The notes below the pieces were generated by a model. The model ran no database searches. It had not been told where the DNA came from and worked only from the letters and a program-made list of their open reading frames with translations. A program made the translations under genes and the position numbers. Shown here piece by piece: positions 563-53,713 of a stretch of DNA of 53,713 nt (positions are counted from its first letter, which is position 1; each line of letters starts with the position of its first letter). Source of the stretch: a virus (Duplodnaviria; Caudoviricetes); the IMG/VR virus record IMGVR_UViG_3300038393_000835, positions 1 through 53,713 of that record, one strand, 5' to 3'.

Positions 563-1756
563 ATTTTCACTCCCTAGTTGTTATAATTTAGGCCCTTCTT
601 GGCCTAAAGGTATCATCTGTTGTTTCTGATATTCATTTCGGTAAGCTTTCAATGCTTTAGCTAATCGCTGTGTCGGCTGTAGCTTTCCTGCCGATGCCCG
701 AACTAGGGAATGTTGGATGAGTGTCTGAAGCACTCCCTGGAATTGTTCCCGGTCTAGCCCTGACAGCATTTGCAGATCCATAATACTCATGTTTTGACCC
801 TTCGCTAGTTGCTGCATCAACAACCTTTGCGAATTGATCAGACCAACTACCACATTATTCACTTGCGGGTTCGTGTAGTTATAGACTCTTTCCTGCTCTA
901 CGAATTTAGGAAGCTGGAAGATTTCATTATCGTAGCACTCTTTCAGGAACCAAGCAGCCCAATCGACATGTTCTTTCTTCACTAGAATTGATTCCCCTGT
1001 ACCATCGTGGCTGAAGCAGGCTCCCGCACACGCTACAGCGATTCTCGCTAGTTTGATAAAGGCTTCGGTCCCGAATAGCTTCACAGTAGAATGATACTGT
1101 TCGTTTAATTGCTTCGTTACTTGCCATGCGTAAGGCCCCACATTCTCATCAAATTTGACTTGATCTTTGGTTCTACTCCAGCACCAGTAAATCAAGTGAC
1201 GGTAAGCAGCGTTATCTTTTTCCTCATATTCTTCCTGATCGAATGGAGATATGATTTGATCTAACTCTAGATCTGGAAGGATGATAATGAAGTCGAAACG
1301 GGCGATATCTTCATCCATCGAAACCAATTCACGAACAATATCAATCCCATTCGCATAAGAAGCAATCGACTTTTCCGAACCGTCCCTAGGGGCTGGATTG
1401 GCGAACCAAATCATCCTCGTTTTAGCAGGAGCCCTACCGGACCCGGAAATCTTCTCGATCTTCGCTACCATTTCAGATCGAATGGCTGTTAGTTGACCGA
1501 TCATTTCCGGTTTCATCCCGGACATTTCATCCATAATGAGGAGTCCTTTATGGTTCTTCGGAATAATCCCCCATTTAGTACGAAACTGGCCCTTACTATT
1601 CCGATCCGCACCCCCAACCAACCCGGCAACACTCGCTAGTTTGAGGTTCGTTGCGTTTCCAATTCCGTAGAATCGTTGCATGAGCATCGCTGTTTTCGAC
1701 TTTCCTGTTCTAGAAGGCCCAATAACTAGAGGTTCTGGGTAGCCTTTTTCCTCTCT
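1..1756. repeat. Terminal overlap, copy 1 (imperfect direct repeat of 51958..53713)
   Basis: Offset is 51957 at the start, middle and end; first 127 nt identical, then many substitutions. Confidence 0.97.
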
Positions 1757-6701: not shown

Positions 6702-7197
6702 TACTTACCTCCCTAAGTTTATTTTCAAACGCTTTATAAGCTTCTTCAGGAGTGTCATACAAACCTAAATAAATTCTTTTATAATTTAATTTAATATGTG
6801 CTTGCCATTTATTTCTTCTACTTTCCCAGCTAACTCCTCTATATCCGCTTTTACTTAATGGATTAGGACCTAAACGATTTAACCCGTTTTCAGACTTTGT
6901 TGCTATTCTTAAATTCATCGATCTTCTATTATCTAACGTGTTATGATTTAAATGGTCAACGTCCTTTGATCTATCATTTATATCCATTAAATATCTATGA
7001 ATATAAATTGCACTTCTTTTACCAGTTTTTCTAGAAGTATGTCCCCACACATATCCTTTAGGATTTACAAACCATGTGAAAGGAAATTGTTTAGTTTTTT
7101 CTAAATCCGAAGTATCAATTAAACATTCATAAGTAATACCTTTTCCTTTTACAAATATCGCAGTAACATTTCCTCTAACTTCATAAGAATTTTTCAT
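6688..7197 (-). CDS. HNH-AP2 homing endonuclease
   Basis: VDHLNHNTLDNRR.NLR plus SGYRGVSW...W.A.I AP2 domain. Confidence 0.9.
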   Translation of the reverse strand: MKNSYEVRGNVTAIFVKGKGITYECLIDTSDLEKTKQFPFTWFVNPKGYVWGHTSRKTGKRSAIYIHRYLMDINDRSKDVDHLNHNTLDNRRSMNLRIATKSENGLNRLGPNPLSKSGYRGVSWESRRNKWQAHIKLNYKRIYLGLYDTPEEAYKAFENKLREVSNGNG

Positions 7198-11638: not shown

Positions 11639-12070
11639 CTATATACCACTGCTACCAAATCCTCCGGTGCGTTCCCCTTCTGCTTGATCATCGTCAGCAA
11701 CTAGGAAAGGCATGAAAACCGCCTGGGCTATTCTATCGTGAATATTAACAATAAATATTTCGTCACCATGATTCATTAATAATACGCCTATTTCTTTTCC
11801 TTCATAGTCCTTATCTACTGTACCGGGAGTGTTTAAAACAGTAATCGTATAATGTAAAGCTAAACCAGACCTAGGCCGGATCTCTACCTGTTCACCGGGT
11901 AGCATATACGCAGTTAAACCTGTTTTAATTAATGTCCACTTTCCAGGATGAATGACCGCTGGTTCAATTGCATGAATATCGTACCCGGCAGATTCACGTG
12001 TAGACCTTGTTGGTAAAATTGCGTTTTCATTTAACTTTCTAAAACCTCTAGTTCTTACTAATCCTTTCAT
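11639..12070 (-). CDS. dut: Trimeric dUTPase
   Basis: SAGYDI, RPRSGLA, GTVDKDYEG, RIAQ, RTGGFGSSG. Confidence 0.96.
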   Translation of the reverse strand: MKGLVRTRGFRKLNENAILPTRSTRESAGYDIHAIEPAVIHPGKWTLIKTGLTAYMLPGEQVEIRPRSGLALHYTITVLNTPGTVDKDYEGKEIGVLLMNHGDEIFIVNIHDRIAQAVFMPFLVADDDQAEGERTGGFGSSGI

Positions 12071-12575
12071 CTAAAAACCTCCATTTATATCCTCTTGAAC
12101 TTTTTGCTATACCTCTTGCAACTAAATCGGCAGCCCAATATCCTGCTATTTTTGCTTCTAAAATACTATCCCACACTTTAACTACTTCATTTGTTATCGG
12201 ATCTATTTGTTCTATTTTACGTTTTCTTTTATTTCGATCCTCTACATAAATTCCTCCTTTAACCGCATGTTGCATGTTTTCAAGATTAGTACAATATTCC
12301 AAGTTATCAATATGGTTATTTGTTTTATTAAAATCTTTATGATTGACTTGTAAATCAGACTTTCCTAAAAATGCTTCAGCAACTACTCTATGAACTAGAT
12401 AACTTTTTCTTGTTTCTTTTCCTCCATTATAAAAAGTAACTGCTAAGTATCCTTTCGGTCTTGGTGACTGTTTTAAAAATCTTTTACTTTTCTTTCTTCT
12501 TATGTTTCCGTAAGAAGAAACTTCGTAAAAATCTTCCCAATCCGTAACATCTCTCCAAATTTCCATTTTGCACAC
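12048..12575 (-). CDS. NUMOD4-HNH homing endonuclease
   Basis: EIWRDV...YEVSSYGNIR, VHRVVAEAF, VNHKDFNKTNNHIDNLEY. Confidence 0.9.
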   Translation of the reverse strand: MCKMEIWRDVTDWEDFYEVSSYGNIRRKKSKRFLKQSPRPKGYLAVTFYNGGKETRKSYLVHRVVAEAFLGKSDLQVNHKDFNKTNNHIDNLEYCTNLENMQHAVKGGIYVEDRNKRKRKIEQIDPITNEVVKVWDSILEAKIAGYWAADLVARGIAKSSRGYKWRFLDERISKN

Positions 12576-16796: not shown

Positions 16797-17197
16797 TGTT
16801 AATCGAAATGCTCAAAAAGAACCAACAGTTCAACGAACTCCCAACACCAAAACAAGAACTATTCGCTATCCTAGCTATCAAATTCGAAGAAGATCCAACC
16901 GCTATTTACTTAACACCGGACGAACTAACACAACACACCAACACGGGAAACAAGGATCTATGGGTACAATTCCTAGCTCTGCCCCCCGTCAGCCAGTTCA
17001 TCAAAGCAGAAATGGCCCGACTCACAGACGTAGCCCAGCGTAAGGCCCTCAAGTCCCTACAGGCTCAGGCCATGTCAGGGAACGTTGCTGCTGCAAAAGA
17101 GATTAATGATTTGGCAGGAATATACCTTAGTCAGAATAACAATCGTACAGTAGTCCTTCATCAGATTAGTCGTCCTAAAGTAAAGGAGGTTAAATAA
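16796..17197 (+). CDS. Probable terminase small subunit
   Basis: First large late gene; A.SGNVAAAKEI motif typical of TerS. Confidence 0.6.
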   Translation: MLIEMLKKNQQFNELPTPKQELFAILAIKFEEDPTAIYLTPDELTQHTNTGNKDLWVQFLALPPVSQFIKAEMARLTDVAQRKALKSLQAQAMSGNVAAAKEINDLAGIYLSQNNNRTVVLHQISRPKVKEVK

Positions 17198-17691
17198 TGA
17201 AGAATGTATATGTCGTGAATGGGGATAAGACCTTTATAATATTTAATTGTAAGGGGTCCAAAAATTTCACAGTTATTGACACCGAAGATTTACCTAAATT
17301 AATGAAATACAATATGACTTGGTTTGGTAGGCAAGACAGATCAGGACATATGTATGTTTGGGGTAAATGGAACGGTGGACATTTGCATCTTCATCGTTTA
17401 ATAACCGACTGTCCTGAAGGAAAATTAGTTGATCATATTAATCTAGATTCCTTAGATAACCGAAAGTCAAATCTTCGTATTGTTTCTCATTCTGAAAATA
17501 TGCAAAATCTTAATATGAAGAAAAGAAATACTTCCGGTTACAGAGGAGTTTACTTTAAGAAATCACAAAATAAATGGGCTGCTCAAGTAAGAGTGAATGG
17601 AAAGGCAATTCATGGAGGATATTTCAATACTTCTGAAGAAGCTAATGTAAAAGCAATTGAAATGAGAAAGCAGTATTTTGACTTTTCATAA
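17197..17691 (+). CDS. HNH-AP2 homing endonuclease
   Basis: VDHINLDSLDNRKSNLR; SGYRGVYF...WAAQV. Confidence 0.9.
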   Translation: MKNVYVVNGDKTFIIFNCKGSKNFTVIDTEDLPKLMKYNMTWFGRQDRSGHMYVWGKWNGGHLHLHRLITDCPEGKLVDHINLDSLDNRKSNLRIVSHSENMQNLNMKKRNTSGYRGVYFKKSQNKWAAQVRVNGKAIHGGYFNTSEEANVKAIEMRKQYFDFS

Positions 17692-24133: not shown

Positions 24134-24556
24134 TTAGGGGTTCTTTATTTCATACAGAACTAAATTGACTACCCGATCTGGGTTTTCATTAATTTCCTTA
24201 TCTGTAAACCTCAATGTTTTCCATCCCTTACTAGCGAGAAAAGCATCCCTACGTTTATCCTTCGCTACCGCTTCCGGTGAACTATGCCATATCAACCCAT
24301 CGCATTCCACCGCAATTCCATACTTAGGCAAAGCCAAGTCAATCGAATATCTGCCGATCTTTAGCTGAGTAACAGGAACGATTCCCCGGCCCACTAATCC
24401 ATCAAATACCTTTCGCTCAATAGAGCTTTGGCAATACTGTCGATAATACTGAGCCTGCTGCTGAATATCTACATTATCCCTAGTTCGTATGAACGTCATA
24501 ATTCCGCTAATTATAATCAATCCAAATAAGATCCAAAATTCAAACTGATCGAGCAT
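24134..24556 (-). CDS. Membrane-anchored DUF559/Vsr-like PD-(D/E)XK endonuclease
   Basis: N-terminal hydrophobic helix; SSIE, YSIDLA, IAVECDG..WH, DKRRDAFL...GW..LRF; antisense to the head operon. Confidence 0.85.
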   Translation of the reverse strand: MLDQFEFWILFGLIIISGIMTFIRTRDNVDIQQQAQYYRQYCQSSIERKVFDGLVGRGIVPVTQLKIGRYSIDLALPKYGIAVECDGLIWHSSPEAVAKDKRRDAFLASKGWKTLRFTDKEINENPDRVVNLVLYEIKNP

Positions 24557-42382: not shown

Positions 42383-42407
42383 AAAAGACCCCTTATAGGG
42401 TCTTTTT
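42382..42407. terminator. Bidirectional terminator
   Basis: AAAAGACCC-CTTATA-GGGTCTTTTT between convergent operons. Confidence 0.8.
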
Positions 42408-42740: not shown

Positions 42741-43362
42741 CCTTCTTCACCCCCGTAATAAACTCCGAATATGGTAACGACTCAGCCCACTCTCGAAACT
42801 CCTGCCATTCTGATAAGCGATGCCCTTTACGATCATGGTAAGCATTGGCGATTGTTGCGTAGTTCAATGTTGTGGTACGCTTTTGCATCCAACCTGAAGG
42901 GAGTAACTGTATAAGAAGTTTCCAAATGCGACGATCTTTAGTTTCTAAAAACATATTTCGGAGCATTTCTAAATCCTTAAATAAAGGAATAGTTATGGGT
43001 TCATGGCTATCTTCAAGAGAAAATAATTCAGGAGTCATTTCCTTCCTTTGAATCGTATGCATAGTGCTCTCGCTGTTCGTAACAATAAATTTATATTGAT
43101 CCATCTCTTTCCACCAATACAAGGGAGCATTGATATCTACACAAACCATGACTTGTCTCATCCATTTGGCATGGCTTCCCCCAGCCTTCGCTAGTTTGAA
43201 TAAAAGGGCGTGGTCGTTAGGACCGATGATAAACTCAGGATCGCAACAAGAGCATTCGTTTTTCCAATAGCTATCCGATTTATCATGACTTTCCCAGCTA
43301 TTTCTAGCCCCTCTTATGGCTCCTTTAAAGTTGAACACTTCGGTTTCCGTGAACTCAATCAT
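42733..43362 (-). CDS. ThyX-like flavoprotein-fold protein
   Basis: AIRGARNS...HAKWMRQ..DINAPLYWWKEMDQY...NSESTMH...LLPSG; canonical RHRx7S motif absent. Confidence 0.55.
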   Translation of the reverse strand: MIEFTETEVFNFKGAIRGARNSWESHDKSDSYWKNECSCCDPEFIIGPNDHALLFKLAKAGGSHAKWMRQVMVCVDINAPLYWWKEMDQYKFIVTNSESTMHTIQRKEMTPELFSLEDSHEPITIPLFKDLEMLRNMFLETKDRRIWKLLIQLLPSGWMQKRTTTLNYATIANAYHDRKGHRLSEWQEFREWAESLPYSEFITGVKKDA

Positions 43363-43736
43363 TTATTTCTCCCCTTTTCAATTAGGCAATAGTAGTGTAT
43401 CCGACAGTACCCGTGTCCGAAATGTCTGCTGTCACAGTCAGGTAGTTTACATTTTTTATTGGCAATCGATCCCTCCGGCCTACCTCCTCCTGTTCCTTGT
43501 TTAAGAACAATTGTAGGATCTCCGTGATTCAGCCACCGTCTATAGTGCATGTTACAGTAACCTCTAGATTTATAATCCGTTCTTTCGCATCCCTCAACGG
43601 TACAGGGACGCTCCTTGCGTATGTACACTTTCTTCGGTTTCTCCGGTTGGGGTTTAGGCCGGGACATAAAATGGTCCCGACACAAACCTTCATCCCAACT
43701 AGGGAGATTGCAGCCCTCCATCTTGCACGTTTTCAT
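43359..43736 (-). CDS. Protein of three Cys/His metal-binding repeats
   Basis: C-x3-GC...G.C..H repeated three times. Confidence 0.7.
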   Translation of the reverse strand: MKTCKMEGCNLPSWDEGLCRDHFMSRPKPQPEKPKKVYIRKERPCTVEGCERTDYKSRGYCNMHYRRWLNHGDPTIVLKQGTGGGRPEGSIANKKCKLPDCDSRHFGHGYCRIHYYCLIEKGRNK

Positions 43737-44485: not shown

Positions 44486-44551
44486 CTCTTATCTCCTCCC
44501 TAGTTAGTATTATTATATCACCTGATATGTATTATGGAAAGAAATATTTTC

Positions 44552-44590
44552 TAGGACAAAACATATTAGCTACCATACCAGCATAGTATA
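44552..44590 (+). promoter_or_regulatory. sigmaE-type (mother cell) promoter with adjacent SpoIIID-like box
   Basis: ACATATT-14 nt-CATAGTAT (B. subtilis sigmaE consensus ZHATAXX-14-CATACAHT); TAGGACAAAA at 44552 versus SpoIIID WWRRACARnY. Confidence 0.7.
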
Positions 44591-44616
44591 TATGACAGGA
44601 AAGGAAGTGTAAGAAT

Positions 44617-44832
44617 ATGAAATTTATCAAGGTTGAAACAGGATTTGGAGGGTGGGATGAATATAACGATGCGGGGCAATTCGTTCGCCACTTAACCAAC
44701 TATCAACATCATCAAGCGGTTCAAGAACACATTCAAAATCATGCCCATGATTGGCTTCTCCATTTCTCATTATGGTGGACCCATCATTCACAATACATGG
44801 CTGATATCATGGCCCAATCTTTTTACAACTAG
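44617..44832 (+). CDS. Small His-rich hypothetical protein, first gene of the FtsK operon
   Basis: AAAGGAAG RBS; 71 aa. Confidence 0.7.
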   Translation: MKFIKVETGFGGWDEYNDAGQFVRHLTNYQHHQAVQEHIQNHAHDWLLHFSLWWTHHSQYMADIMAQSFYN

Positions 44833-44843
44833 GAGGGATAGAC

Positions 44844-44975
44844 ATGTGGGGAAAGTTAGCTCAATACGCAACCATTCTTGTTTTCTTAGAGTGGTTAGGT
44901 AGGCAAGGACTGTTTGGACTTAGAGGAACGGGGGTGTTGACATGGTTCTGGGAACTCTTATTGGTGCATCTATGA
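44844..44975 (+). CDS. Small membrane peptide, 43 aa; not in ORF track
   Basis: AGGAGGG RBS; MWGKLAQYATILVFLEWLGRQGLFGLRGTGVLTWFWELLLVHL. Confidence 0.7.
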   Translation: MWGKLAQYATILVFLEWLGRQGLFGLRGTGVLTWFWELLLVHL

Positions 44976-46282
44976 TCGCTCCGGCTATTATTTATCCTCT
45001 CTTGGATTCTCCAACAAAGCGATTCAAACAAAAGCTCTACTACACCTTTAGTTCTTACGACATGCCGGACATTAAGATCCTGGAAGTTTACAAAACGGAT
45101 TATGGATTCAAAGCGAACATCCAATTACCTCACGGATTACCGCACTCAGACTTCATGAAAGAACTAGAGGGGATAGAGCAATCAATGATGGCAAAGATTC
45201 GGGTGAAGCGGGGAGTAGGCCGGATACTTCTCCTTGATTTCGGGATGCTTTCTCTAGATAAGAAGATTGACTATGAAAGAGTACCCAAACAAGGAATGAA
45301 AATCCCTCTAGCTACCCCATTCGGATTCATTCATATGGATTTTACGCATATGGTCGGCGGGGGAGCTACGGATATGGGGAAAACAGTTCTTCAGTTACTC
45401 ATCGCCACTCACCTATACATTCAATCCAAAGGAACCATTGATCTCATCATCTCCAGCAATAAAACAGCCGACTACTACATGTTCAAAAACCTACCCAACG
45501 TTACTCTAGTTGAATCCGATGAAACCTTAAAGCAGCTAAAAAGAGTGGTGAAAGAATACGAAAAGCGGAAAGAAATCATTAATGAACTAGGGAATGTCAA
45601 TGACCATAAGACTCTTCGAGAGAAATACCCCGATAAAGCCTTTCAACCGATTTACGTGATCATTGATGAGTGCGGGGTGTTCTCCGAAGATAAAGATGTG
45701 AAAGAGCAACTAACCGAAATTGCAGAACGAGCTCGATATGTAGACATTCATCTTGTGTTGTTTTCACAAAGACCAGATGTGAAAGTTTTAAATGAACGCA
45801 TTAAGGCGAATCTATTAACGAGGATAGCATTAACGACAGCAAGCGATAAAGATTCCAGGATTATACTCGGTATGGATGGAGCTGAAAAACTGGGAGGAAT
45901 TAAAGGAAGGGCCATTTTGCTTGAGAGTTTACCTGTAGAAGTTCAAATCCCATACCTATCAAACGATACAGCCGAAAGGTTATTAAGGAGTGTTAATCAT
46001 GACAGACAGGGACGAATTGATCATCCAAAAACTGAAGCAGTTTCGAGTCCTGAGCCGGGACCAGATTGGTTCGATAGTATGTTCGGATCTAGCGAGACCG
46101 TGGGCAACCGTGAACCGGATCATGAAACGGTTAAGTCGGGATGGGCTTTGCTTGCCGATCCCCCAACCCAAAGACAAACCGTATCTCTACATGCCGAACC
46201 CCGCATTCATACACACGCAAAGCAGCCGGATACAACACTTCCTGGGATTAGTCGACATCTACCTATTGTTAGGGAAGCCTGA
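44942..46282 (+). CDS. FtsK/SpoIIIE-family ATPase with N-terminal membrane anchor
   Basis: HMVGGGATDMGKT, YVIIDE, FSQRPD, IKANL..RI, GAEKL..IKGRAI. Confidence 0.92.
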   Translation: MVLGTLIGASMIAPAIIYPLLDSPTKRFKQKLYYTFSSYDMPDIKILEVYKTDYGFKANIQLPHGLPHSDFMKELEGIEQSMMAKIRVKRGVGRILLLDFGMLSLDKKIDYERVPKQGMKIPLATPFGFIHMDFTHMVGGGATDMGKTVLQLLIATHLYIQSKGTIDLIISSNKTADYYMFKNLPNVTLVESDETLKQLKRVVKEYEKRKEIINELGNVNDHKTLREKYPDKAFQPIYVIIDECGVFSEDKDVKEQLTEIAERARYVDIHLVLFSQRPDVKVLNERIKANLLTRIALTTASDKDSRIILGMDGAEKLGGIKGRAILLESLPVEVQIPYLSNDTAERLLRSVNHDRQGRIDHPKTEAVSSPEPGPDWFDSMFGSSETVGNREPDHETVKSGWALLADPPTQRQTVSLHAEPRIHTHAKQPDTTLPGISRHLPIVREA

Positions 46283-46559
46283 ACGATTCCTAGTTGAGCC
46301 CGACATTCCCAACCATACTTACCGGCCGGATGCCATTACCCAGTTACGGGACCAACGAATCGTGATTGAATATCAAAGATCCCACATCTCCCACAAAACC
46401 ATGCAGGAAAAAGTGAATAACTTTGTGGATAGTGGGGATATCCATAGATCTAGAGAACTATGGATCATCACGGATAAAGCCTTTAGAGTGGAGCATCCTA
46501 AAGAATACACCGTCCATCAATTTCCACTAACCGAAGTCAAAGAAAAAAGAGTCCTGTAA
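45999..46559 (+). CDS. Replication-relaxation (Replic_Relax) family protein
   Basis: MTDRDELII..L..FRVLSRDQI, RIMKRL, PYLY, IQHFL, YRPDA, IEYQRS; ATG at 45999 after AAGGAG. Confidence 0.85.
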   Translation: MTDRDELIIQKLKQFRVLSRDQIGSIVCSDLARPWATVNRIMKRLSRDGLCLPIPQPKDKPYLYMPNPAFIHTQSSRIQHFLGLVDIYLLLGKPERFLVEPDIPNHTYRPDAITQLRDQRIVIEYQRSHISHKTMQEKVNNFVDSGDIHRSRELWIITDKAFRVEHPKEYTVHQFPLTEVKEKRVL

Positions 46560-46571
46560 AGGACTCTTTTC
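46545..46571. terminator. Bidirectional terminator
   Basis: AAAAGAGTCC-TGTAAA-GGACTCTTTT. Confidence 0.8.
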
Positions 46572-46671: not shown

Positions 46672-47684
46672 TCAGCGAACGCCACAAGCTCCGTTAGCAC
46701 AATTCGGGTCTTCAATATCCTCATCAATATCTTCAGGATTCTCTAATCGGTTCAACACATTCATATCAAACGGAGCCATAGCAGCCTTTAATTCTTCGAA
46801 TTTCTCTTTCGTAATTGCCTCAAGTGGTGCGAGCTGATAGCTATGCCCCGAATAAGCGAGAAAACTAACGGCTGTGAAATCATCCCACTTACTGTAAACA
46901 ATTTCCTCAGCTTTCGCCCATTCCCCATCTTTAATGTCAATGGTATTAGAAGAGTTGTGACGGGTATAGTATTTTTGGAAATCAAAATAGGTTCTGAACT
47001 GTTCTTCAACATTCGAATCCTCCTTACTACGTTTAGCACCACTAGCAATTGGGAATTCTATAACTAGGGTACGTGCATTCGCTAGTTGTTCCTCTCTAGT
47101 TGCCCCCGGAGTCCCAACTTCAGGATGCACCAACCACCCTAGTTCTTGAACGGTTTTTGCTAACGGGTCCATCGCATTGATGCGAATTCTACGGATGTAG
47201 TAAGGTGAATGCGACAAATGCAAGCCAGACGACACAGGTGATTTCGTTATTGGATTTACCGCAACTAGGGATAAGGTTCCTTCCGGCTTTACGGTTGTAT
47301 CCAATAAAGGTTTACTAATGCGTAATTCTGAAGAGTATCGTTCCACTTCTTCTTTTACAGCTAGGGATAGCATACGAAGTAGGTCACGTTCAGCCTCTAG
47401 ATCATATCCAAGAATCGCAATCGCATCTTTCCAACCGGTTACGGATGTTCCAATCAGACGATCCGTGGATTGAACCTTTGCCCAGCCTTTCGGATCTTTA
47501 CTCCACGGCATACTCTCTAGTTCTACCAAGGTCATACGCATTCCAGCTCGAGCAGAAAGCTTCTGAGCATTGATCAATCCTGCGATATTCAACACATACT
47601 TCCCAGCTACTTCATGAATAAAGGCCGTTACGTTAATAGTTGTTAGGTTACAAACGCCTCGAGAACGAAGATCGATTTCGGCAC
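46672..47684 (-). CDS. nrdJ: Class II (B12-dependent) ribonucleotide reductase, exon 2
   Basis: After splicing reads CAEIDLRSRGVCNLTT; TTVKPEGTLS; C-terminal CANGACGVR. Confidence 0.9.
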
Positions 47685-48569
47685 CACTTATGTTACGAAC
47701 TAGCCGATTCCGCTAGTTCTCTCTAAGTTTCCCTAGAGGTCAGACTATATCACGTACAGGATTCCATTTGTATAAGAAACTTTCTACAGGACATTCAGGA
47801 AGTTTTTTATAAAATTTATCAAACATACTTTGTTTGATAGCAATTCTATTTCTATCCGCAACCCTAGTCTCAATATCGTACCAATTAAACAACATGAGTT
47901 GCAATTCCTGAATTTCCGTAGCGTTATATCTGTCAGTACAAAACATTATTCTCACAGGTTTACCTTTCAGGTTTACTACATATCCATCTCCGATAAACCA
48001 TTGAAGCATAGCGTTAGGTGTTAAAACAAAATCATTAGGAATAGCTTTTCTTCTTTTACCTTCCTCATCGTATTCATACCATATTTGCTCTAGTTCTCTA
48101 AAAGCTGGGTAGAATTTAGTTTCGATCATATAAGATTCCTTTGAACCAGGAAAGCTTCCTCTATAGGCTTCTTGAATTTTAAACTCAATACCTTCAGCCT
48201 CAAATAACTTCCCTAGATATTCAATGTAATCTAGATTCATGTTCTTAACTTGTAACGATGCGGAATGTTTACTTTTCCTATTGTTTGTTAAATGACCATC
48301 GCCTAACATTAGACCTTCAAAATGTGAGACAAAGCTTCTTGACAGATTAAGTTCCTTAAAGAAATGAGCCATTCTGTACCCTCCCGTTTCGAACTCTCTT
48401 GAGTCCTACTCTACTTCCTTCTATTGTAGCATTCTATTAGTATCTCCACAATAGGGTTTCGATAGTCGTTGAACCTTCCGATTTCTCGGCTTGGCTGCTG
48501 ATTGTCCTCGGCTTTACGTTAGGAGTTTCCAGCAATTAAGGAGGTTTTACATCCGCTATGCTACTTTTA
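47685..48569 (-). mobile_element. Group I (IA-type) self-splicing intron in nrdJ
   Basis: Exon AUCCGU pairs with IGS GCGGAU; P AAUUGCUGGAAACUCC, Q AAUCAGCAGCC, R UCAACGACUA, S GAUAUAGUCUG; terminal G at 47685; removal restores NP-C-AEI. Confidence 0.93.
47740..48372 (-). CDS. Intron-encoded LAGLIDADG homing endonuclease
   Basis: FEGLMLGDGH and QWFIGDG; lies between R and S, and its stop overlaps S. Confidence 0.92.
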   Translation of the reverse strand: MAHFFKELNLSRSFVSHFEGLMLGDGHLTNNRKSKHSASLQVKNMNLDYIEYLGKLFEAEGIEFKIQEAYRGSFPGSKESYMIETKFYPAFRELEQIWYEYDEEGKRRKAIPNDFVLTPNAMLQWFIGDGYVVNLKGKPVRIMFCTDRYNATEIQELQLMLFNWYDIETRVADRNRIAIKQSMFDKFYKKLPECPVESFLYKWNPVRDIV

Positions 48570-49905
48570 ACGGATTCATAAAGATTTGTTCCATCATATC
48601 TTCAATCATCGCTTCGGTTGGGTTATCAATTCCCATCCCTTTCAATCTGCGAACCGCTAATTCTCTAAGGTTTACAAAGCCCGGTTCACCCTCACGTTGC
48701 ATCATTTCGAACACAAGATTCAGGACTCCCCTAGTCGGCTTCTTTGTAAAAGCAATTGAATTATTTGACATTCTGCGATGGTGCAGCGGTCTAGCATTCG
48801 GGTCCATTAGGGTAAGACTCTCTAGTTTAGCAGCCCACTCCGTATTACCCATTTCGTATAACTTACGAATAACTTTGTCGTGTCCCTCTTGGTCCCAAAT
48901 TCCGTTAACGCCATACTTCGCAAATACACACTCCCAATCGACTTCAGGATCGTCACCAATACCGAAAATTTCGGCAGTTCTGCGAACTCCTCCCACAACT
49001 ACATTATAGCCAATACAATTTCCCATATCTAAAACATGGATCGGTCTTAGCTGTACATAACCTGGAGCCACTTCAACCGGATCGTCTAGGAATGTGTCCA
49101 CTTTGTTTTTAATAATACTTTCAAACGACTGGAACATCTCAATCATCGGTTCGGCCCCTGAAGCGGTTCCACCGAAGGTCTTTAATCGCTCCCCATTTTT
49201 GCGTACATAATCATAGTTGATCTTCAGCACATTTACATCTGCGTACTCTTCCTGGATATGAACATCTAGGAAATATTTAAGGGCTGTTACCCATCCTTCC
49301 TTCGAATCGCCTACGTAGATCGTTACGGTATCCCCGTTTCGTACTATTGACGAGTCTGCTACTTTGATGGTAGGGTATAGGGAGTTGTAAGGGTCATGCT
49401 TAATTAACAAATTATTGCGAACAGGCTCTAGCTTTGCAGCCATTTTCGGAGTACATTTGAAGCCGACACCTACGCCTACAAGCAAGTTATAGAATAACTC
49501 AGTAAGATTATAGAGCGAGTCAATTCCAACATAAGAACAGTTAAAGTTAGCCATTGGATACTTTTCAGCCACACTATTGTCAGCCCCACCCACCCAAAGG
49601 GTTCTTCCTGATAAGAACTGGCGAAGATTAAACATTTGGTCAAACAAATATTCTGCTTCCGTTCTCAGTCTTGCAAGAATATCTACAGACAAGTCACCAT
49701 ATAATTCTACTAAGTGTTTGTAAGCGAGGGAAACATTGTATTGAGCAGCCCGACATGCTGTCTCTTTCCAGGTTTCCCTTCTCTTTTTAGATGGCAAATA
49801 ACGTGAATAGGTACGCAAATAAACAAAGGTACTAATCTCCGATTGATGTTCAGGGAAATCAGGATACTTCGCTAGAAATTCCTCAGTTAATAATTGGATC
49901 GACAC
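48570..49905 (-). CDS. nrdJ: Class II ribonucleotide reductase, exon 1
   Basis: VYLRTYSR..RETW, SGRTLW, FNCS, GGTASG, GGVRRTAEI, RRMSNNS, GEPGF; GTG at 49905 after AGGAG. Confidence 0.92.
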
Positions 49906-50001
49906 GTAAATTTCTCCTCTCATAAAAAGCGTGGTAACTCTACTTATTCGACGTTGACCACGCTATTTCCTTCTGTATTTAAGAATAAATTCTGGAATCT
50001 A

Positions 50002-50371: not shown

Positions 50372-52519
50372 CTAATGAACCTTGCGTTTCTCAGCCCAAT
50401 TTGTTGATGTGAATTCCACTTCCGCAACGATCGGGACCATGATATCGGTTGTTGACTCCATAATCTCTTTGATCTTAGGAACTAACCAATCTTCATTTTC
50501 CGGTATTTCAAACTGTAATTCATCGTGAACGCATAGGATCATCTTCGCTTTACAATCGTTTTCTGTAAGCAGCCGATCAATTTTAATCATTACTTCTTTC
50601 AGAATATCTGCTGACGTACCTTGGATTAAATAGTTCCCAGCTTTGTAGAATTTCCGTGAATCTGAAATGTAGTATCTTCGACCACGCATATTAACCACAT
50701 AGCCCTTTCTCATGCCCTCCGATACCTTATCTTGATACAATACAACTAGAGGAAACGCATCTGTATAACCCTCTGCCATCGCTATAGCTTCTTCTAAGTC
50801 TATTTCTAAAACTTCCGCAGCCATTTTAGGACCTCCCCCGTAGTTTCTCATAAAATTGAACGTTTTACCCAACGATCTCCAGCTTTCTAGCTGTTCTTCC
50901 GTTAGCTTGCTGGCATCAATCTCTAGTTTATCTAAAGCTTTTAAGGTAGTAGCTAGGTGAACATCTGTGGCAACCCATGGGGTTCCATCTTCCATCAACC
51001 AAGCCGATACCTCCCCATTCTTTTCATTCCATCGGGATCTTCCTTCGACAGTCTTATAATCGTAGATTTCACCTGATTGAAAATGTCGGCATCCGAAAGG
51101 CATGTATGCTCGGCACAAATTTCGATCTCCTCCGAATGGGATCGTATAATGGCCTTGCACCCGCAGTTCAACTTGACTGTAATCGAGGTAATAGATTCGT
51201 CCGGTAAACGCTCGACGAGGGTGAAAGAGTTCAAATTCGGCTGGTGCTGACTTAGGACCATTTTGCTTTTCATGAGCATCCCCTTCTAGAGTTAATAGTC
51301 GCTTCTTCGGGAACTGTTGGGCATCGCCACTAAAACGTCCCGATACTGGATTGAATTGGTTCATCTGGGAATAGAATCGTCCATCGTATTCCGATACATC
51401 TAGAATGCGTTCAATGTAAGTCGCTTTCCATTTCTCAAGGGTTCTCATTTTGTTAATGATCTTCGCTAGTTCGGCCCCATCAGTTCCTTTCATCTTCTGC
51501 ATCTTCTTCAGGAACTTTTTATCCGTGGATTCCGGTTCCTCACCTAAAATTGACTCATAGATCTTTTTGATCTTGGCATGCTGCCCGACATTGAATTCCA
51601 TACCCGCTAGAAGATGCATTTGAATCGTCAGATCGTTGATATAATCCTCTAGCTTCTTATTCGATTCCACTAAGTAATCCCGATCAACGGCAATTCCGGC
51701 CCTCTCCATTTTCCATACAACGGGGATTAGGTCAAATTCACGCTTCATTACCTCTAGTTGCTGGCGATATTCCACAACGGGAAGTGACTTACGAACGAGG
51801 ATGTTAGTCAGAATCACATCGACAGCTAGATAAGGAATCATGATCTCTAGTGGTACATCTTGATAGGTTGGTTTCGGGCATTCTTCTCTCCAGTTGTTTA
51901 GAATATCGAGAACTTCTTGCGGAATCGGCTCCGTACCATTGTTCAAACCATCGGTTAAACGTTTCTTGGACCATTTCCCTTTTGAGTCTTTGAAACCATG
52001 AAGCATCGCTGTTAGGATCTTGTTGTTCTGAGCCTCTTTTGCTTTGAGCCATGCTTTCACTTCCTTCTCAAATCGTGAAGCTGTCGGGTCAATATACTTG
52101 TCGGCAATTCGCTTTAATGCAAGACTGTCGCCTCCATCCCTAGTTGATATGGCTTCAAAGGAGAGTCGGGCGAGGCCCATAGTATCTCCCCAGTTTTCAA
52201 TAGCTAACGGTATTGAATCTCCTACAATATTTGCTACCATGTGCATATCGTAAGAAGTATTATGAGCATAAATTCTTTCGACTGAAGAAGCCCAACCATA
52301 TAGCATCCCTAACATAATTTTATTAGCGGGGAAAACAAAAACCTTTCCGTCCCAACATATAGAAGCTAGGAAAGGTTTATCTTTCTTAATGTGTAGCCCA
52401 GTAGTTTCCGTATCAAACGTAATCCATTTAGGACTGTCTTGCATTAACTTCATAGATACTAATTCTACATCATCTGTATAAACCACTTCATAATCTTCTC
52501 CCGCAACGGTGAGGATCAT
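50372..52519 (-). CDS. polA: DNA polymerase I (family A) with 3'-5' exonuclease
   Basis: FDTETTG, AHNTSYD, SGRFS, LDYSQVELR, R..GKTFNF..NYG, NYLIQGTSAD, VHDEL. Confidence 0.95.
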   Translation of the reverse strand: MILTVAGEDYEVVYTDDVELVSMKLMQDSPKWITFDTETTGLHIKKDKPFLASICWDGKVFVFPANKIMLGMLYGWASSVERIYAHNTSYDMHMVANIVGDSIPLAIENWGDTMGLARLSFEAISTRDGGDSLALKRIADKYIDPTASRFEKEVKAWLKAKEAQNNKILTAMLHGFKDSKGKWSKKRLTDGLNNGTEPIPQEVLDILNNWREECPKPTYQDVPLEIMIPYLAVDVILTNILVRKSLPVVEYRQQLEVMKREFDLIPVVWKMERAGIAVDRDYLVESNKKLEDYINDLTIQMHLLAGMEFNVGQHAKIKKIYESILGEEPESTDKKFLKKMQKMKGTDGAELAKIINKMRTLEKWKATYIERILDVSEYDGRFYSQMNQFNPVSGRFSGDAQQFPKKRLLTLEGDAHEKQNGPKSAPAEFELFHPRRAFTGRIYYLDYSQVELRVQGHYTIPFGGDRNLCRAYMPFGCRHFQSGEIYDYKTVEGRSRWNEKNGEVSAWLMEDGTPWVATDVHLATTLKALDKLEIDASKLTEEQLESWRSLGKTFNFMRNYGGGPKMAAEVLEIDLEEAIAMAEGYTDAFPLVVLYQDKVSEGMRKGYVVNMRGRRYYISDSRKFYKAGNYLIQGTSADILKEVMIKIDRLLTENDCKAKMILCVHDELQFEIPENEDWLVPKIKEIMESTTDIMVPIVAEVEFTSTNWAEKRKVH

Positions 52520-53713
52520 TGTACCACTCCCTAGTTGTTATAATTTAGGTCCTTCCATTCCAAGTGGAATCATCTGTTGTTTCTGATATTCATTTCGGTA
52601 AGCTTTCAATGCTTTAGCTAATCGCTGTGTCGGCTGAAGCTTTCCTGCTGAGGCCCGAACTAGGGAATGTTGGATGAGTGTTTGCAAGACTCCTTGGAAT
52701 TGTTCCCGATCCAGCCCTGATAGCATTTGCAGATCCATAATACTCATGTTTTGACCCTTCGCTAGTTGTTGCATCAACAACCTTTGCGAATTGATAAGGC
52801 CAACCACAACGTTATTGACTTGCGGGTTCGTGTAGTTATAGACTCTTTCCTGCTCTACGAATTTAGGAAGCTGGAAAATCTCATTATCGTAACACTCTTT
52901 CAGGAACCAGGCAGCCCAATCGACATGTTCTTTTTTCACTAGGATCGATTCCCCAGTTCCATCGTGACTAAAGCAAGCTCCAGCACACGCTACAGCGATT
53001 CTTGCTAGTTTGATAAAAGCTTCTGTCCCGAATAATTTCACAGTTGAATGATACTGTTCGTTTAGTTGTTTGGTTACTTGCCATGCGTAAGGTCCCACAT
53101 TCTCATCAAACTTGACTTGATCTTTTGTTCTACTCCAGCACCAGTAAATCAAGTGACGGTAAGCAGCGTTATCCTTTTCCTCATATTCTTCTTGATCGAA
53201 TGGAGAAATGATTTGGTCTAACTCTAGATCTGGGAGAATGATAATGAAATCAAAGCGGGCGATATCTTCATCCATCGAAACCAATTCCCGAACAATATCA
53301 ATCCCATTCGCATAAGAGGCAATTGACTTTTCCGACCCATCTCTAGGGGCTGGGTTGGCAAACCAAATCATTCTTGTTTTTGCCGGAGCCCTACCGGAGC
53401 CTGAAATCTTTTCAATCTTCGCTACCATTTCAGATCGAATGGCTGTTAATTGACCTATCATCTCCGGTTTCATCCCAGACATTTCATCCATAATGAGGAG
53501 TCCCTTATGATTCTTAGGAATTATCCCCCACTTGGTACGAAACTGACCCTTACTATTCCGATCCGCACCCCCGACTAACCCGGCAACACTCGCTAGTTTG
53601 AGGTTCGTTGCGTTTCCAATTCCGTAGAATCGCTGCATGAGCATCGCAGTTTTCGATTTACCCGTACGCGATGGACCGATAACTAGAGGTTCTGGGTAGC
53701 CTTTTTCCTCTCT
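51958..53713. repeat. Terminal overlap, copy 2
   Basis: Collinear with 1..1756. Confidence 0.97.
52538..53713 (-). CDS. Primase-helicase C-terminal part, second allele, truncated by window edge
   Basis: The 368 aa shown match 581..3433 except Q to M near the C-terminus. Confidence 0.93.
   Translation of the reverse strand, partial: REEKGYPEPLVIGPSRTGKSKTAMLMQRFYGIGNATNLKLASVAGLVGGADRNSKGQFRTKWGIIPKNHKGLLIMDEMSGMKPEMIGQLTAIRSEMVAKIEKISGSGRAPAKTRMIWFANPAPRDGSEKSIASYANGIDIVRELVSMDEDIARFDFIIILPDLELDQIISPFDQEEYEEKDNAAYRHLIYWCWSRTKDQVKFDENVGPYAWQVTKQLNEQYHSTVKLFGTEAFIKLARIAVACAGACFSHDGTGESILVKKEHVDWAAWFLKECYDNEIFQLPKFVEQERVYNYTNPQVNNVVVGLINSQRLLMQQLAKGQNMSIMDLQMLSGLDREQFQGVLQTLIQHSLVRASAGKLQPTQRLAKALKAYRNEYQKQQMIPLGMEGPKL

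What the first reader, a model, noticed from the sequence alone, without database searches (positions are those of the whole stretch)
44552..46571. Sporulation-wired DNA-transfer cassette: sigmaE/SpoIIID promoter driving FtsK/SpoIIIE ATPase + Replic_Relax + small proteins
Seen: a four-gene operon on the + strand inside a minus-strand block, with its own terminator. It is preceded by ACATATT-14-CATAGTATA and an abutting TAGGACAA box rather than a sigmaA promoter. Known: these match B. subtilis mother-cell sigmaE and SpoIIID consensus sites; FtsK/SpoIIIE ATPases pump DNA across septa; Replic_Relax proteins are plasmid DNA-nicking/relaxation proteins; the gene pair occurs in other Bacillus phages without an assigned function that I know of. 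Inference: a phage with no visible integrase or Par system may switch on a minimal relaxase + pump in the doomed mother cell to move its genome into the forespore or a neighbouring cell.
Basis: partly seen in the sequence, partly recalled or inferred. Interest (0 to 1): 0.9.

Follow-up and report, generated by a model that had tools for sequence, protein, structure and literature searches.

The report
Sporulation-type promoter on phage DNA-pump cassette
A soil phage carries a self-contained gene cassette for a membrane DNA-pumping ATPase and a DNA-nicking protein, and its private promoter looks like those that spore-forming bacteria use only in the mother cell, which suggests a testable way for a phage to hide its genome in a spore.

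Summary
At 44552-46571 there is a + strand unit inside minus-strand genes. It has TAGGACAA, ACATATT-N14-CATAGTAT, two small ORFs, an FtsK/TcpA-like membrane ATPase, a Replic_Relax (MOB_C-type) winged-helix plus PD-(D/E)XK nuclease, and a bidirectional terminator.

In the window alone the motifs are no commoner than chance. Conservation makes them significant:
- ATA-N16-CATAnnnT lies upstream of the cassette in 10 of 19 related loci.
- A matrix built from 16 other loci has its best hit in the whole window at this site.
- The matrix scores sigmaE-regulon promoters in three Bacillaceae genomes above sigmaF/G/K genes (p=0.0046).

The exact SpoIIID half-consensus TAGGACAA is missing from close kin. 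It recurs next to the -35 in two cultured Bacillus phages: 3 of 36 cassettes, 0.07 expected.

New points:
- The ATPase ORF always ends inside the nuclease gene, in a fixed frame.
- That tail is predicted to dock on the nuclease.
- The nearest cultured phage lacks the cassette, so it is a moron.

A mother-cell (sigmaE/SpoIIID) reading is therefore well supported in silico but unproven. Transfer of phage DNA into the forespore remains inference. Rivals are a vegetative delayed-early role, conjugative hitch-hiking and exclusion.

The parts
44552..44559 (+). TAGGACAA box. It equals the first 8 bases of the published 10-bp SpoIIID consensus TAGGACAAGC and lies 1 nt upstream of the -35 block.
   Evidence: Searches give the sequence and position. 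One search gives the consensus (passage in PMC11180830). The exact 8-mer occurs in 3 of 36 cassette upstream regions against 0.073 expected. It is absent from the closest kin.
44561..44567 (+). -35-like block ACATATT (ATA core) of the cassette promoter.
   Evidence: ATAT is the most informative -35 column set in the alignment of 18 loci.
44582..44590 (+). -10-like block CATAGTAT(A), 14 nt after the -35 block, preceded by G.
   Evidence: The matrix built from 16 other loci has its top hit in the window at 44559, scoring 22.7 against 14.6 for the next.
44617..44832 (+). orfA, 71 aa, His-rich, not hydrophobic, no known family. It is absent from the nearest relative L006.
44844..44975 (+). orfB, 43 aa, mildly hydrophobic. 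It overlaps the start of the ATPase gene by 34 nt. A look-alike ORF sits in the same place in L006.
44942..45998 (+). FtsK/TcpA-like ATPase. It has one N-terminal membrane helix and a conserved middle region, with Walker A (G146 K147), Walker B (D242 E243) and QRPD (276-279). No gamma domain was found.
   Evidence: phrog_1358 E 2.7e-48. PF01580 scores 21.5 bits, below the 24-bit cut-off. PDB FtsK E 1.7e-15 and 'DNA translocase coupling protein' 6o1w E 1.7e-11 over residues 117-341. Invariant columns from A1. Hydropathy 2.06.
45999..46282 (+). C-terminal tail of the ATPase ORF (residues 353-446). It is read in another frame across the first 94 codons of the nuclease gene. Residues 375-381 (PDWFDSM) are predicted to dock on the nuclease domain.
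   Evidence: same frame relation in 26 of 27 loci examined, the odd one being 268TH008, annotated with a 4-nt overlap. In the 26 loci measured the overlap is 14-299 nt. Synonymous-shuffle p is 0.012 in the window. Complex prediction.
45999..46559 (+). Replic_Relax / MOB_C-type protein, made of an N-terminal winged helix-turn-helix and a C-terminal PD-(D/E)XK nuclease fold. The RBS AGGAG lies 8 nt upstream.
   Evidence: PF13814 25.7 bits against a 25.3 cut-off, N-terminal part only. PF06054 CoiA_nuc E 3.2e-9. phrog_2190 E 2.2e-23. AlphaFold2 pLDDT 95.7. Foldseek best hits are Bax1, Can2, McrC and MarR-type chains, all with E above 1e-3. Invariant residues R4 R40 H80 P94 E100 D111 E124 K138.
46544..46571 (.). 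Bidirectional intrinsic terminator. It ends the cassette and also the converging minus-strand ribonucleotide reductase transcript.

Best explanation
The finding is a moron: a self-contained transcription unit inserted between the replication genes of a virulent phage of the Paenibacillus/Bacillus type.

Its core has four elements:
1. A private promoter of the mother-cell type (-35 ATA, 16 nt, -10 CATAnnnT). In this phage a SpoIIID-consensus half-site abuts it.
2. A membrane-anchored hexameric-type ATPase of the FtsK/TcpA kind, without a DNA-reading gamma domain.
3. A winged-helix plus PD-(D/E)XK nuclease of the Replic_Relax/MOB_C relaxase class.
4. A terminator.

The tail of the ATPase is encoded out of frame over the start of the nuclease gene and is predicted to hold the nuclease. 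The pair would therefore work as one machine, with the nuclease finding and cutting or nicking a specific DNA site and the ATPase pumping that DNA.

What is shown: the anatomy, the conservation of the promoter, the folds and the conserved catalytic residues.

What is inferred: that sigmaE RNA polymerase, tuned by SpoIIID, reads the promoter, so that the unit is silent in growing cells and switched on in the mother cell of a sporulating host. A second inference is that the substrate is the phage's own genome. The likeliest purpose is then to get that genome into, or keep it with, the forespore (a 'virospore').

My odds:
- Anatomy: about 0.9.
- Mother-cell sigma dependence: about 0.6.
- Forespore delivery: about 0.3.

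The figure given below is for the joint reading 'a sporulation-timed DNA processing and pumping module'.
For: **Anatomy.**

**The cassette is a moron.**
- The nearest cultured phage is Paenibacillus phage API480 (TerL 38% and DNA polymerase 42% identity).
- In API480, DNA polymerase and the resolvase sit next to each other with no cassette between them.
- In Bfsp1, 268TH008, Palmer and 274BB002 the cassette follows a terminator-like hairpin. I read those hairpins by eye; only Palmer's is annotated.

**Promoter.**
- The window scores 12 of 15 against KMATATT-N14-CATACAMT. That consensus is recalled. The ATA and CATA features and the 16-18 spacing are quoted in PMC3789822.
- 12 of 19 distinct lineage loci reach 12 of 15 or better upstream of the cassette. 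Only 3.6% of 720 random 150-nt windows do.
- The strict pattern ATA-N15-17-CATAnnnT lies upstream of the cassette in 10 of 19 loci. There are only 20 further hits in 358,398 nt-strands.
- In the alignment of 18 sites the informative columns are exactly ATAT and (G)CATA...T.
- A matrix from 16 other loci, leaving out the window and L006, puts its best of 107,364 positions at 44559, scoring 22.7 against 14.6 for the next.

**Positive control.**
- I scored a two-block matrix made from the phage sites on three Bacillaceae genomes.
- It rates the upstream regions of spoIIIAA, spoIID, spoIVA, spoIIM, spoIIID and spoIIP (n=18) above those of spoIIR, SASP and dpaA (n=15). Mann-Whitney p=0.0046.
- 5 of 18 sigmaE-gene regions exceed the 95th percentile of 990 random windows, against 0 of 15 controls.

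**SpoIIID box.**
- The published consensus is TAGGACAAGC.
- The exact TAGGACAA lies next to the -35 in the window, PfEFR-4 and vB_BhaS-171. That is 3 of 36 upstream regions against 0.073 expected.
- 8 of 36 regions match 8 or more of 10 positions, against 2.1 expected.

**Host side.** Homologous ATPases occur in 260 phage records, 159 of them Bacillus phages. spoIIIE homologues are listed among sporulation genes enriched in phages of spore-formers (PMC10294663).

**Precedent.** SPbeta sprB has an experimentally shown mother-cell promoter of the sigmaE/K type (PMC4191935).

**Tether.**
- The complex prediction supports binding. The score is 0.74 against a best control of 0.25. That mark was reached by 58 of 80 solved complexes and by 2 of 110 mismatched pairs.
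- The runs agree in at least 18% of contacts, and the partner's pLDDT is at least 87.
- The interface joins tail residues 375-381 to nuclease residues 95-150. My own alignments were used, so the calibration counts hold only roughly.
Against: - No expression data exist, and the host is unknown. The holders are soil and rhizosphere metagenomes.
- In the window alone the motifs are at chance level.
- The 19 lineage loci share synteny and ancestry, so they are not independent.
- 4 of the 19 (L012, L014, L024, L042) have no hit of 11 or more of 15. Three of these show CGTA in place of CATA.
- TAGGACAA is absent from 16 of the 17 lineage upstream regions.
- The positive control is modest. spoIIID (0 of 3) and two of three spoIID regions are not picked up, and host sites score 8-12 where phage sites score 14-22.
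- In B. cereus-group phages the -35 reads ACAAGTT, not ATA.
- A review states that the Fah FtsK gene is 'delayed' in ordinary infection.
- A Staphylococcus phage and 52 mycobacteriophage records also carry FtsK-like genes, so the gene kind is not tied to sporulation.
- Spo0A boxes are not enriched: 5 against 6.9 expected.
- Mechanically, a pump made only in the mother cell, with a single membrane helix, has no obvious route across two membranes.
- Synonymous sites in the overlap are barely more constrained than in the rest of the gene (0.55 against 0.58 changed).
Confidence: 0.4

Rival explanations
1. The cassette is an ordinary middle ('delayed-early') unit of vegetative infection. The odd promoter would be read by the host's main polymerase with a phage-made activator, or by an unrecognised phage factor. 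The ATPase and nuclease would serve phage DNA metabolism: replication start, concatemer or segregation work, plasmid-like carriage, or DNA entry.
For: - PHROG names the nuclease family 'replication initiation protein'.
- The Fah FtsK gene is classed as 'delayed' in ordinary infection (review passage).
- Authors of phage papers have proposed roles in injection (Pony), in replication or segregation (RBClin15) and in plasmid-prophage leftovers (Novomoskovsk).
- FtsK-like genes also occur in phages of hosts that do not sporulate.
Against: - The promoter type is unique in the genome. A phage-wide middle-gene factor would be expected to serve several promoters.
- No sigma or activator family was found among 50 ORFs scanned, though each was scanned with one or two libraries only.
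- The promoter travels with the cassette into unrelated phage backbones, which favours a host factor.
- The match to sigmaE features and to the SpoIIID consensus would then be coincidence.
Confidence: 0.25
2. The cassette is a mobilisation module, consisting of a TcpA-type coupling protein and a MOB_C relaxase. It would let phage DNA hitch a ride through the conjugation pore of a resident plasmid or integrative element into neighbouring cells.
For: - PF13814 is counted as the MOB_C relaxase class, and in Firmicutes elements tcpA lies just upstream of the relaxase gene (PMC5357655; PMC6499999).
- The ATPase aligns with the solved 'DNA translocase coupling protein' over its whole motor.
- Distant homologous pairs (L016-L019) are followed by membrane proteins and an M23-type peptidase ORF. 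I read these from translations only.
- The tail-to-nuclease docking prediction fits a coupling protein holding its relaxase.
Against: - No pore genes lie in the phage.
- A mother-cell-type promoter makes little sense for cell-to-cell transfer.
- No oriT was identified.
- Transfer of a 52-kb virulent phage genome would kill the recipient, although that could be the point.
Confidence: 0.12
3. The cassette is an exclusion or defence moron. A membrane ATPase and a nuclease would attack or expel incoming DNA of competing phages or plasmids.
For: - The unit has the classic moron layout, with its own promoter and terminator in the opposite orientation to its neighbours.
- The ATPase domain matches those of the defence proteins SspH (E 2.6e-22) and mad8.
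- The nuclease's nearest folds include Can2 and McrC.
Against: - The PADLOC hits cover the shared ATPase domain only, and the nuclease has no PADLOC hit.
- The phage looks virulent, so there is no long-lived lysogen to protect.
- The reading does not explain the promoter type.
Confidence: 0.08

Closest known systems
FtsK/SpoIIIE-like plus 'replication-relaxation' gene pairs annotated in Bacillus phages (Wbeta/Gamma/Fah group, Pagevirus Pony/Page/Palmer, PfEFR-4, 268TH008, vB_BhaS-171, Salasmaviridae Bfsp1 and DLc1)
   Same: The two families occur in the same order, often with small ORFs in front and usually as a separate unit after a terminator. The ATPase ORF ends inside the next gene.
   Different: Identity is only 23-39%. 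In my searches no paper assigned a function, a sigmaE-type promoter or a SpoIIID site to these pairs. The window's lineage has the longest overlaps (up to 299 nt) and a clean ATA/CATA promoter.
TcpA-type coupling protein with a non-canonical relaxase in Firmicutes conjugative and mobilisable elements (pCW3, Tn916/ICEBs1/ICESt3 and streptococcal IMEs). The MOB_C relaxases are related to restriction endonucleases (pAD1 TraX).
   Same: An FtsK-related membrane ATPase gene lies directly upstream of the relaxase gene. The relaxase class PF13814/MOB_C has a PD-(D/E)XK fold.
   Different: Here the pair sits in a virulent phage with no pore genes and no identified oriT, under a mother-cell-type promoter. 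Nicking activity is untested.
SpoIIIE, the host pump that moves the chromosome into the forespore
   Same: It shares the motor family and is membrane anchored.
   Different: The phage protein has one membrane helix rather than a multi-helix anchor, and no gamma (sequence-reading) domain was found by Pfam. It is paired with a site-specific nuclease. SpoIIIE's anchor of four helices and its expression before septation are recalled, not taken from a call.
Mother-cell-specific phage or prophage genes: SPbeta sprB (sigmaE/K-type promoter shown by reporter and GFP) and skin spoIVCA (sigmaE plus SpoIIID; recalled)
   Same: A phage-borne gene is wired to the mother-cell programme through a CATA-type -10 and possibly SpoIIID (PMC4191935).
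   Different: Those genes control excision of integrated prophages. Here the cargo is a DNA pump and nuclease in a phage where no integrase was found.
Streptomyces TraB/clt double-stranded DNA conjugation (recalled)
   Same: A single FtsK-like pump and a recognition site are enough to move DNA between compartments.
   Different: TraB reads its site itself. Here a separate winged-helix nuclease would do so. This was not compared by any search.

Membership tests
FtsK/SpoIIIE family (Pfam PF01580; FtsK-HerA pumping ATPases) | The profile match reaches the curated cut-off. | tested here: inconclusive
   The window protein scores 21.5 bits against a 24-bit cut-off. However, phrog_1358 gives E 2.7e-48, PDB FtsK gives E 1.7e-15, and most relatives carry a precomputed PF01580.
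FtsK/SpoIIIE family (Pfam PF01580; FtsK-HerA pumping ATPases) | Walker A, Walker B and the arginine/sensor motif are intact. | tested here: met
   G146 K147, D242 E243 and Q276 R277 P278 D279 are invariant in 15 of 15 sequences.
FtsK/SpoIIIE proper (chromosome translocases) | A C-terminal gamma winged-helix domain that reads polar DNA motifs, and a multi-helix membrane anchor. | tested here: not met
   Pfam finds no FtsK_gamma hit. There is one hydrophobic helix at residues 1-20. The tail after the motor is low-confidence and probably disordered (others' pLDDT 39-41).
TcpA-type conjugative coupling protein | An FtsK-like motor with an N-terminal membrane anchor, encoded directly upstream of the relaxase gene. 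| tested here: met
   Chain 6o1w 'DNA translocase coupling protein' gives E 1.7e-11 over residues 117-341. Gene order. Description of the arrangement in PMC5357655.
TcpA-type conjugative coupling protein | It works with a type IV secretion pore encoded by the same or a helper element. | not testable with these tools
   No pore genes appear among 50 ORFs scanned in the phage. A helper in the unknown host cannot be checked.
Replic_Relax / MOB_C relaxase (Pfam PF13814) | The profile match reaches the curated cut-off. | tested here: met
   The score is 25.7 bits against a 25.3 cut-off, and only residues 11-56 align. Partner proteins in Carmel_SA and 268TH008 match full length (E 7.6e-17 and 6.2e-17). 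phrog_2190 gives E 2.2e-23.
Replic_Relax / MOB_C relaxase (Pfam PF13814) | An HTH domain fused to a PD-(D/E)XK nuclease fold with acidic and lysine catalytic residues. | tested here: met
   The AlphaFold2 model has pLDDT 95.7. Foldseek gives a winged helix plus Bax1/Can2/McrC-type nuclease, all with E above 1e-3. E100, D111, E124 and K138 are invariant in 21 of 21 sequences. Family fold assignment from PMC3424549.
Replic_Relax / MOB_C relaxase (Pfam PF13814) | Site-specific nicking at an origin of transfer. | not testable with these tools
sigmaE-dependent (mother-cell) promoter | A -35 ATA and a -10 CATAnnnT, 16-18 nt apart. | tested here: met
   In the window ATA lies at 44563-65, followed by 16 nt and then CATAGTAT. 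The features are quoted in PMC3789822. They are conserved in kin and resemble host sigmaE-regulon promoters.
sigmaE-dependent (mother-cell) promoter | Transcription depends on sigE and is confined to the mother cell. | not testable with these tools
   No RNA run is listed as holding the sequence.
SpoIIID binding site | A match to the consensus TAGGACAAGC. | tested here: met
   8 of 10 positions match, and the first eight are exact. The 8-mer recurs in 3 of 36 cassettes against 0.073 expected. It is not conserved in close kin.
SpoIIID binding site | SpoIIID binds it and changes transcription. | not testable with these tools
   This needs a gel shift or footprint and a spoIIID mutant.
Phage moron | Own promoter and terminator, present or absent between otherwise syntenic phages. 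| tested here: met
   API480 lacks the cassette between DNA polymerase and the resolvase.

The most novel reading that the evidence does not exclude
'Conjugation inside one cell'. A virulent phage would carry a coupling-protein-plus-relaxase module that is switched on by sigmaE and tuned by SpoIIID in the mother cell. The module would nick the phage genome at a private site and feed it into the forespore, either through the mother-cell-to-forespore conduit (the SpoIIIA-SpoIIQ channel) or the SpoIIIE pore. That would make active, phage-encoded virospore formation a widespread trait of Bacillales phages. The out-of-frame tail of the pump would be the tether that loads the relaxase.
Probability: 0.13. 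Interest if true: 0.95.

Novelty: new variant of a known kind. Interest (0 to 1): 0.78.

Why it matters
Phage genomes are known to be trapped in spores, and authors have guessed that phage-borne segregation genes help (PMC10294663; PMC12991052). In my searches, however, no phage-encoded machinery or regulatory link has been pinned down.

If the reading is right, a conserved mother-cell-type promoter with a SpoIIID consensus site sits in front of a pump-plus-nuclease cassette. That would be the first concrete wiring of a lytic phage's DNA-moving genes to the host's developmental programme. It can be tested directly with standard B. subtilis genetics.

The work also recasts a gene pair that is annotated vaguely in more than 150 Bacillus phage records. 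It becomes a coupling-protein/MOB_C-relaxase module, linking phages to the conjugation toolkit.

Finally, it brings up a conserved long gene overlap whose product is predicted to tether the two proteins.

Tried and rejected
**Searches and tests that led nowhere or were weak**

- Near-identical DNA in the phage collection: no match.
- Single-protein locus search in viral contigs: nothing. The alignment-based search worked.
- Genome-wide motif counts in the window: not above chance. The window's motif alone is therefore not evidence.
- Whether SP-15 and LIS04's longer proteins (544 and 516 aa) are fusions with the nuclease: no similarity by BLASTP, and Pfam finds no Replic_Relax. Rejected.
- PADLOC: only ATPase-domain hits.
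- Spo0A boxes: 5 against 6.9 expected.
- Sequence search of solved structures with the nuclease: nothing below E 0.5.
- Extra synonymous-site constraint in the overlap. The pooled fractions are 0.55 against 0.58 changed, from non-independent pairs. It is lower only in the closest pairs, for example L012/L042 at 5 of 41 against 31 of 116. This is weak, so the case for a translated tail rests on the frame staying open and on the docking prediction.
- sigmaK reading: the AC lies 19 nt from CATA, where I recall 16-17 being expected. sigmaD, sigmaH, sigmaF/G and sigmaA readings checked by eye fit worse. Those consensus sequences are recalled.
- Expression: no RNA holder is listed among 11 runs, all soil or rhizosphere metagenome DNA.
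- Literature. Searches found no paper that gives these cassettes a sporulation-type promoter. Supplementary tables of PMC3789822 and PMC517825, which list the promoters, were not seen and could refine the matrices. The Fah primary paper was not seen; only a review passage was.
- Not done: the search of protein representatives and the protein-atlas search were not used. orfA homologues were not searched beyond the family libraries. Terminators in relatives were not scanned systematically.

Full report
**What the window is**

The window is a whole virus record of 53,713 bases, rated complete. Its two ends repeat each other at about 90% identity with an offset of 51,957 bases, so the real unit is probably about 52 kb.

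Fifty ORFs were scanned, each with one or two family libraries.
- They show a replication block: primase-helicase, SSB, Sak4, exonuclease, helicase, dUTPase, family A DNA polymerase, and a ribonucleotide reductase split by a LAGLIDADG endonuclease ORF.
- They also show a structural block (PhoH-like protein, portal, head, tail) and an amidase with a holin-like ORF.
- No integrase, partition protein or sigma factor was hit.

The nearest cultured phages infect Paenibacillus larvae. API480 and SV21 share 38% identity in TerL and 42% in DNA polymerase. B. subtilis phages Goe11, Goe12 and Goe14 come next. Near-identical DNA is held by 11 soil and rhizosphere metagenome runs.

**The observation**

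The unit runs on the + strand between minus-strand genes, with a RuvC-like resolvase gene on its left and the ribonucleotide reductase gene on its right. It ends in a strong hairpin that can terminate both converging transcripts.

The 131-nt gap in front of the unit holds sigma70-type promoters only on the minus strand.

Taken alone, the motifs are not remarkable. Their counts in the window equal those in shuffles. One of 29 other gaps matches the recalled sigmaE consensus equally well.

**The proteins**

*The ATPase.* The 446-aa ORF has one N-terminal membrane helix and an FtsK-type motor with intact Walker A, Walker B and QRPD motifs.
- It falls just under Pfam's cut-off, but matches phrog_1358 at 2.7e-48.
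- Among solved structures it matches FtsK at 1.7e-15 over part of the motor. It matches a 'DNA translocase coupling protein' (6o1w) at 1.7e-11 over the whole motor. I recall 6o1w as TcpA of pCW3.
- No gamma domain was found.

*The nuclease.* The 186-aa protein has a winged helix followed by a PD-(D/E)XK nuclease fold.
- The model has pLDDT 95.7. The best fold matches are Bax1, Can2, McrC and MarR-like chains, none below E 1e-3.
- H80, E100, D111, E124 and K138 are invariant in 21 relatives.
- Pfam places it marginally in Replic_Relax. Partner proteins in Carmel_SA and 268TH008 match that family full length.
- The literature counts Replic_Relax as the MOB_C relaxase class, related to restriction endonucleases. 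It notes that in Firmicutes mobile elements the FtsK-like coupling-protein gene lies just upstream of the relaxase gene.

So the pair looks like a minimal coupling-protein-plus-relaxase module.

**Relatives**

The ATPase has homologues in 260 phage records, 159 of them Bacillus phages. The same two-gene order occurs in very different phages: Wbeta-like phages, Pagevirus, PfEFR-4, 268TH008, 274BB002, PM1, vB_BhaS-171, the phi29-like Bfsp1 and DLc1, and a Staphylococcus phage.

Published notes on the pair are guesses only. They suggest injection, segregation, sporulation cross-talk or plasmid leftovers.

Searches with an alignment of 15 homologues brought in:
- 16 viral loci;
- 20 metagenome loci;
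- 4 genome loci.

About 19 distinct loci form the window's own lineage. They share the same neighbours, with the RuvC-like gene divergent on one side and replication genes convergent on the other. API480 has DNA polymerase and the resolvase side by side without the cassette. The unit is therefore an insertion with its own signals, which makes it a moron.

**The promoter test**

- *Consensus scoring.* I scored KMATATT-N13-15-CATACAMT. This consensus is recalled; its ATA, CATA and spacing features are quoted. Of 19 distinct lineage loci, 12 have a site with 12 or more of 15 matches just upstream of the first cassette gene. Most sites lie 48-60 nt before the ATPase start, and most have a 14-nt spacer. 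Only 3.6% of random 150-nt windows do as well.
- *Strict pattern.* ATA-N15-17-CATAnnnT is present there in 10 of 19 loci. It occurs only 20 times elsewhere in 358,398 nt-strands.
- *Alignment.* When 18 sites are aligned on the -10, the informative columns are ATAT, a G, CATA and a T four bases on. The flanks have diverged.
- *Matrix scan.* A matrix from 16 other loci finds its best score in the entire window at 44559. The score is 22.7, against 14.6 for the next. The phage has no second promoter of this kind.
- *Exceptions.* L012, L042 and L024 carry CGTA instead of CATA. L014 has no candidate.

**Positive control on real genomes**

I located six sigmaE-regulon genes (spoIIIAA, spoIID, spoIVA, spoIIM, spoIIID, spoIIP) in three Bacillaceae genomes reached through my loci. 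As contrasts I located spoIIR (sigmaF), SASP genes (sigmaG) and dpaA (sigmaK). Which sigma factor controls each of these genes is recalled from B. subtilis.

A two-block matrix made only from the phage sites picked plausible promoters upstream of several sigmaE genes. An example is GTCATAAT-N-GCATACATT before spoIIIAA in all three genomes.
- The sigmaE set (n=18) scored above the contrast set (n=15), with p=0.0046.
- 5 of 18 sigmaE regions, against 0 of 15 contrasts, exceeded the 95th percentile of 990 random windows.
- The effect is moderate. spoIIID and two spoIID regions were missed, and the tested windows differed in length.

**The SpoIIID box**

The published high-affinity consensus is TAGGACAAGC. 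The window has its first eight bases, one base upstream of the -35.

The closest relative, L006, has TCTAACAT there, and 16 of the 17 lineage upstream regions lack GGACAR.

Yet the exact 8-mer sits in the same position in two cultured Bacillus phages: before AAGTT-type -35 blocks in PfEFR-4 and vB_BhaS-171. TTGGACAAGG and TTGGACAAAC occur in Bfsp1 and L040.
- The exact 8-mer is in 3 of 36 upstream regions, against 0.073 expected.
- 8 of 36 regions match 8 or more of 10 positions, against 2.1 expected.

The box is therefore a recurrent feature of these cassettes, but an optional one.

**A new structural point**

In 26 of 27 loci examined the ATPase ORF runs past the start of the nuclease gene in the same relative frame. 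The exception is 268TH008, which is annotated with a 4-nt overlap. In the 26 loci measured the overlap is 14-299 nt, and it is 284 nt in the window.

Shuffling synonymous codons of the nuclease gene keeps the frame open that far in only:
- 1.2% of trials for the window;
- 0.24% for L006;
- 0.12% for L008;
- 0.24% for L014.

Nine of the 26 loci have p above 0.3. Synonymous sites in the overlap are hardly more constrained than elsewhere. Two of every three tail bases are fixed by the nuclease frame, so the tail's apparent motif (LPSF or DWF) may be partly a by-product.

Independently, a complex prediction of the ATPase's last 147 residues with the nuclease supports binding.
- The score is 0.74 against a best control of 0.25. 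That mark was reached by 58 of 80 solved complexes and 2 of 110 mismatched pairs.
- The runs agree in at least 18% of contacts, and the partner's pLDDT is at least 87.
- The contact joins tail residues 375-381 to nuclease residues 95-150, which lie outside the overlap.
- The score is the model's own confidence, not a measurement. My own alignments were used, so the calibration counts hold only roughly.

**How it most likely works**

*Shown:* a portable unit with a private, conserved, non-sigmaA promoter; a membrane motor; a site-reading nuclease with conserved catalytic residues; and a likely tether between them.

*Inferred:*
- The promoter is read by the mother-cell sigma factor sigmaE. sigmaK has overlapping specificity. 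In some phages SpoIIID sets the timing.
- The unit would then be silent during ordinary lysis and switched on when an infected cell has already divided asymmetrically.
- The nuclease would mark the phage genome and load it on the pump.

The purpose that fits best is to carry the genome into the forespore, or to keep it with the forespore. This has long been suspected for phage segregation genes. SPbeta sprB is a proven example of a phage gene with a mother-cell promoter.

*Weak points:* the host is unknown and there is no RNA evidence. A distant relative's gene is expressed in vegetative infection. The route across two membranes is unexplained.

*Rivals:* a vegetative middle-gene role in DNA metabolism, hitch-hiking through a resident conjugation pore, and exclusion of foreign DNA.

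**Verdict**

- The regulatory reading is supported by conservation and by a positive control, but it is not proven.
- The function remains a hypothesis.
- The gene pair is known, and sporulation links have been guessed before. The conserved mother-cell-type promoter, the recurrent SpoIIID consensus, the relaxase/coupling-protein reading and the overlapping tether are new as far as my searches reach.

Noticed in passing
window 1-1756 and 51958-53713: The two ends of the record are direct repeats at about 90-92% identity (offset 51,957). They re-encode the same DNA polymerase N-terminus and primase-helicase C-terminus. This looks like a circularly permuted genome assembled across two strain variants, not a true terminal repeat.
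   Followed up: partly
window 46672-47595, 47740-48372, 48556-49923 (minus strand): The ribonucleotide reductase gene is in two pieces (phrog_367 positions 31-371 and 418-696). A LAGLIDADG homing endonuclease ORF lies between them, so an intron or an intein-like interruption is likely.
   Followed up: no
window 6688-7197, 12048-12575, 17197-17691, 43359-43736, 24134-24556: The load of selfish nucleases is unusually heavy. There are four HNH endonuclease ORFs, one of them with an AP2 domain, and a DUF559/MTES_1575 endonuclease ORF on the opposite strand inside the structural block.
   Followed up: no
L029-L032, L042, L012 and L007, about 20-60 nt upstream of the -35; window 44500-44545: Upstream of the promoter the relatives carry tandem 7-nt-spaced CACATAA/CACGTCA-type repeats ending in GTCAAC. 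These could form an operator for the divergent promoters, or the nuclease's recognition site.
   Followed up: no
L016-L019, L038-L040, L045 (for example L017:3455-6473): Distant FtsK/Replic_Relax pairs sit behind a divergent Cro/CI-type HTH gene. Membrane-protein ORFs and an M23-type peptidase ORF follow, an arrangement more like a small conjugative element than a phage. Several also have sigmaE-like matches upstream; L040's GAATATT-15-CATACAAT scores 15 of 15.
   Followed up: partly
L060 (Bacillaceae genome G003), about 40 nt upstream of spoIVA: The candidate sigmaE promoter of spoIVA reads GGAATATT-N15-CATAAATA with TAGGACAA inside the spacer. That is the same 8-mer as in the phage.
   Followed up: no
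protein P0010: One metagenomic homologue shifts frame inside the ATPase motor and runs on into the Replic_Relax frame. This gives a single 458-aa ORF carrying both Pfam families. It could be a sequencing error, a pseudogene or a natural fusion.
   Followed up: no
window 42383-42406: A second bidirectional hairpin terminator separates the lysis genes (+ strand) from the minus-strand nucleotide-metabolism block.
   Followed up: no
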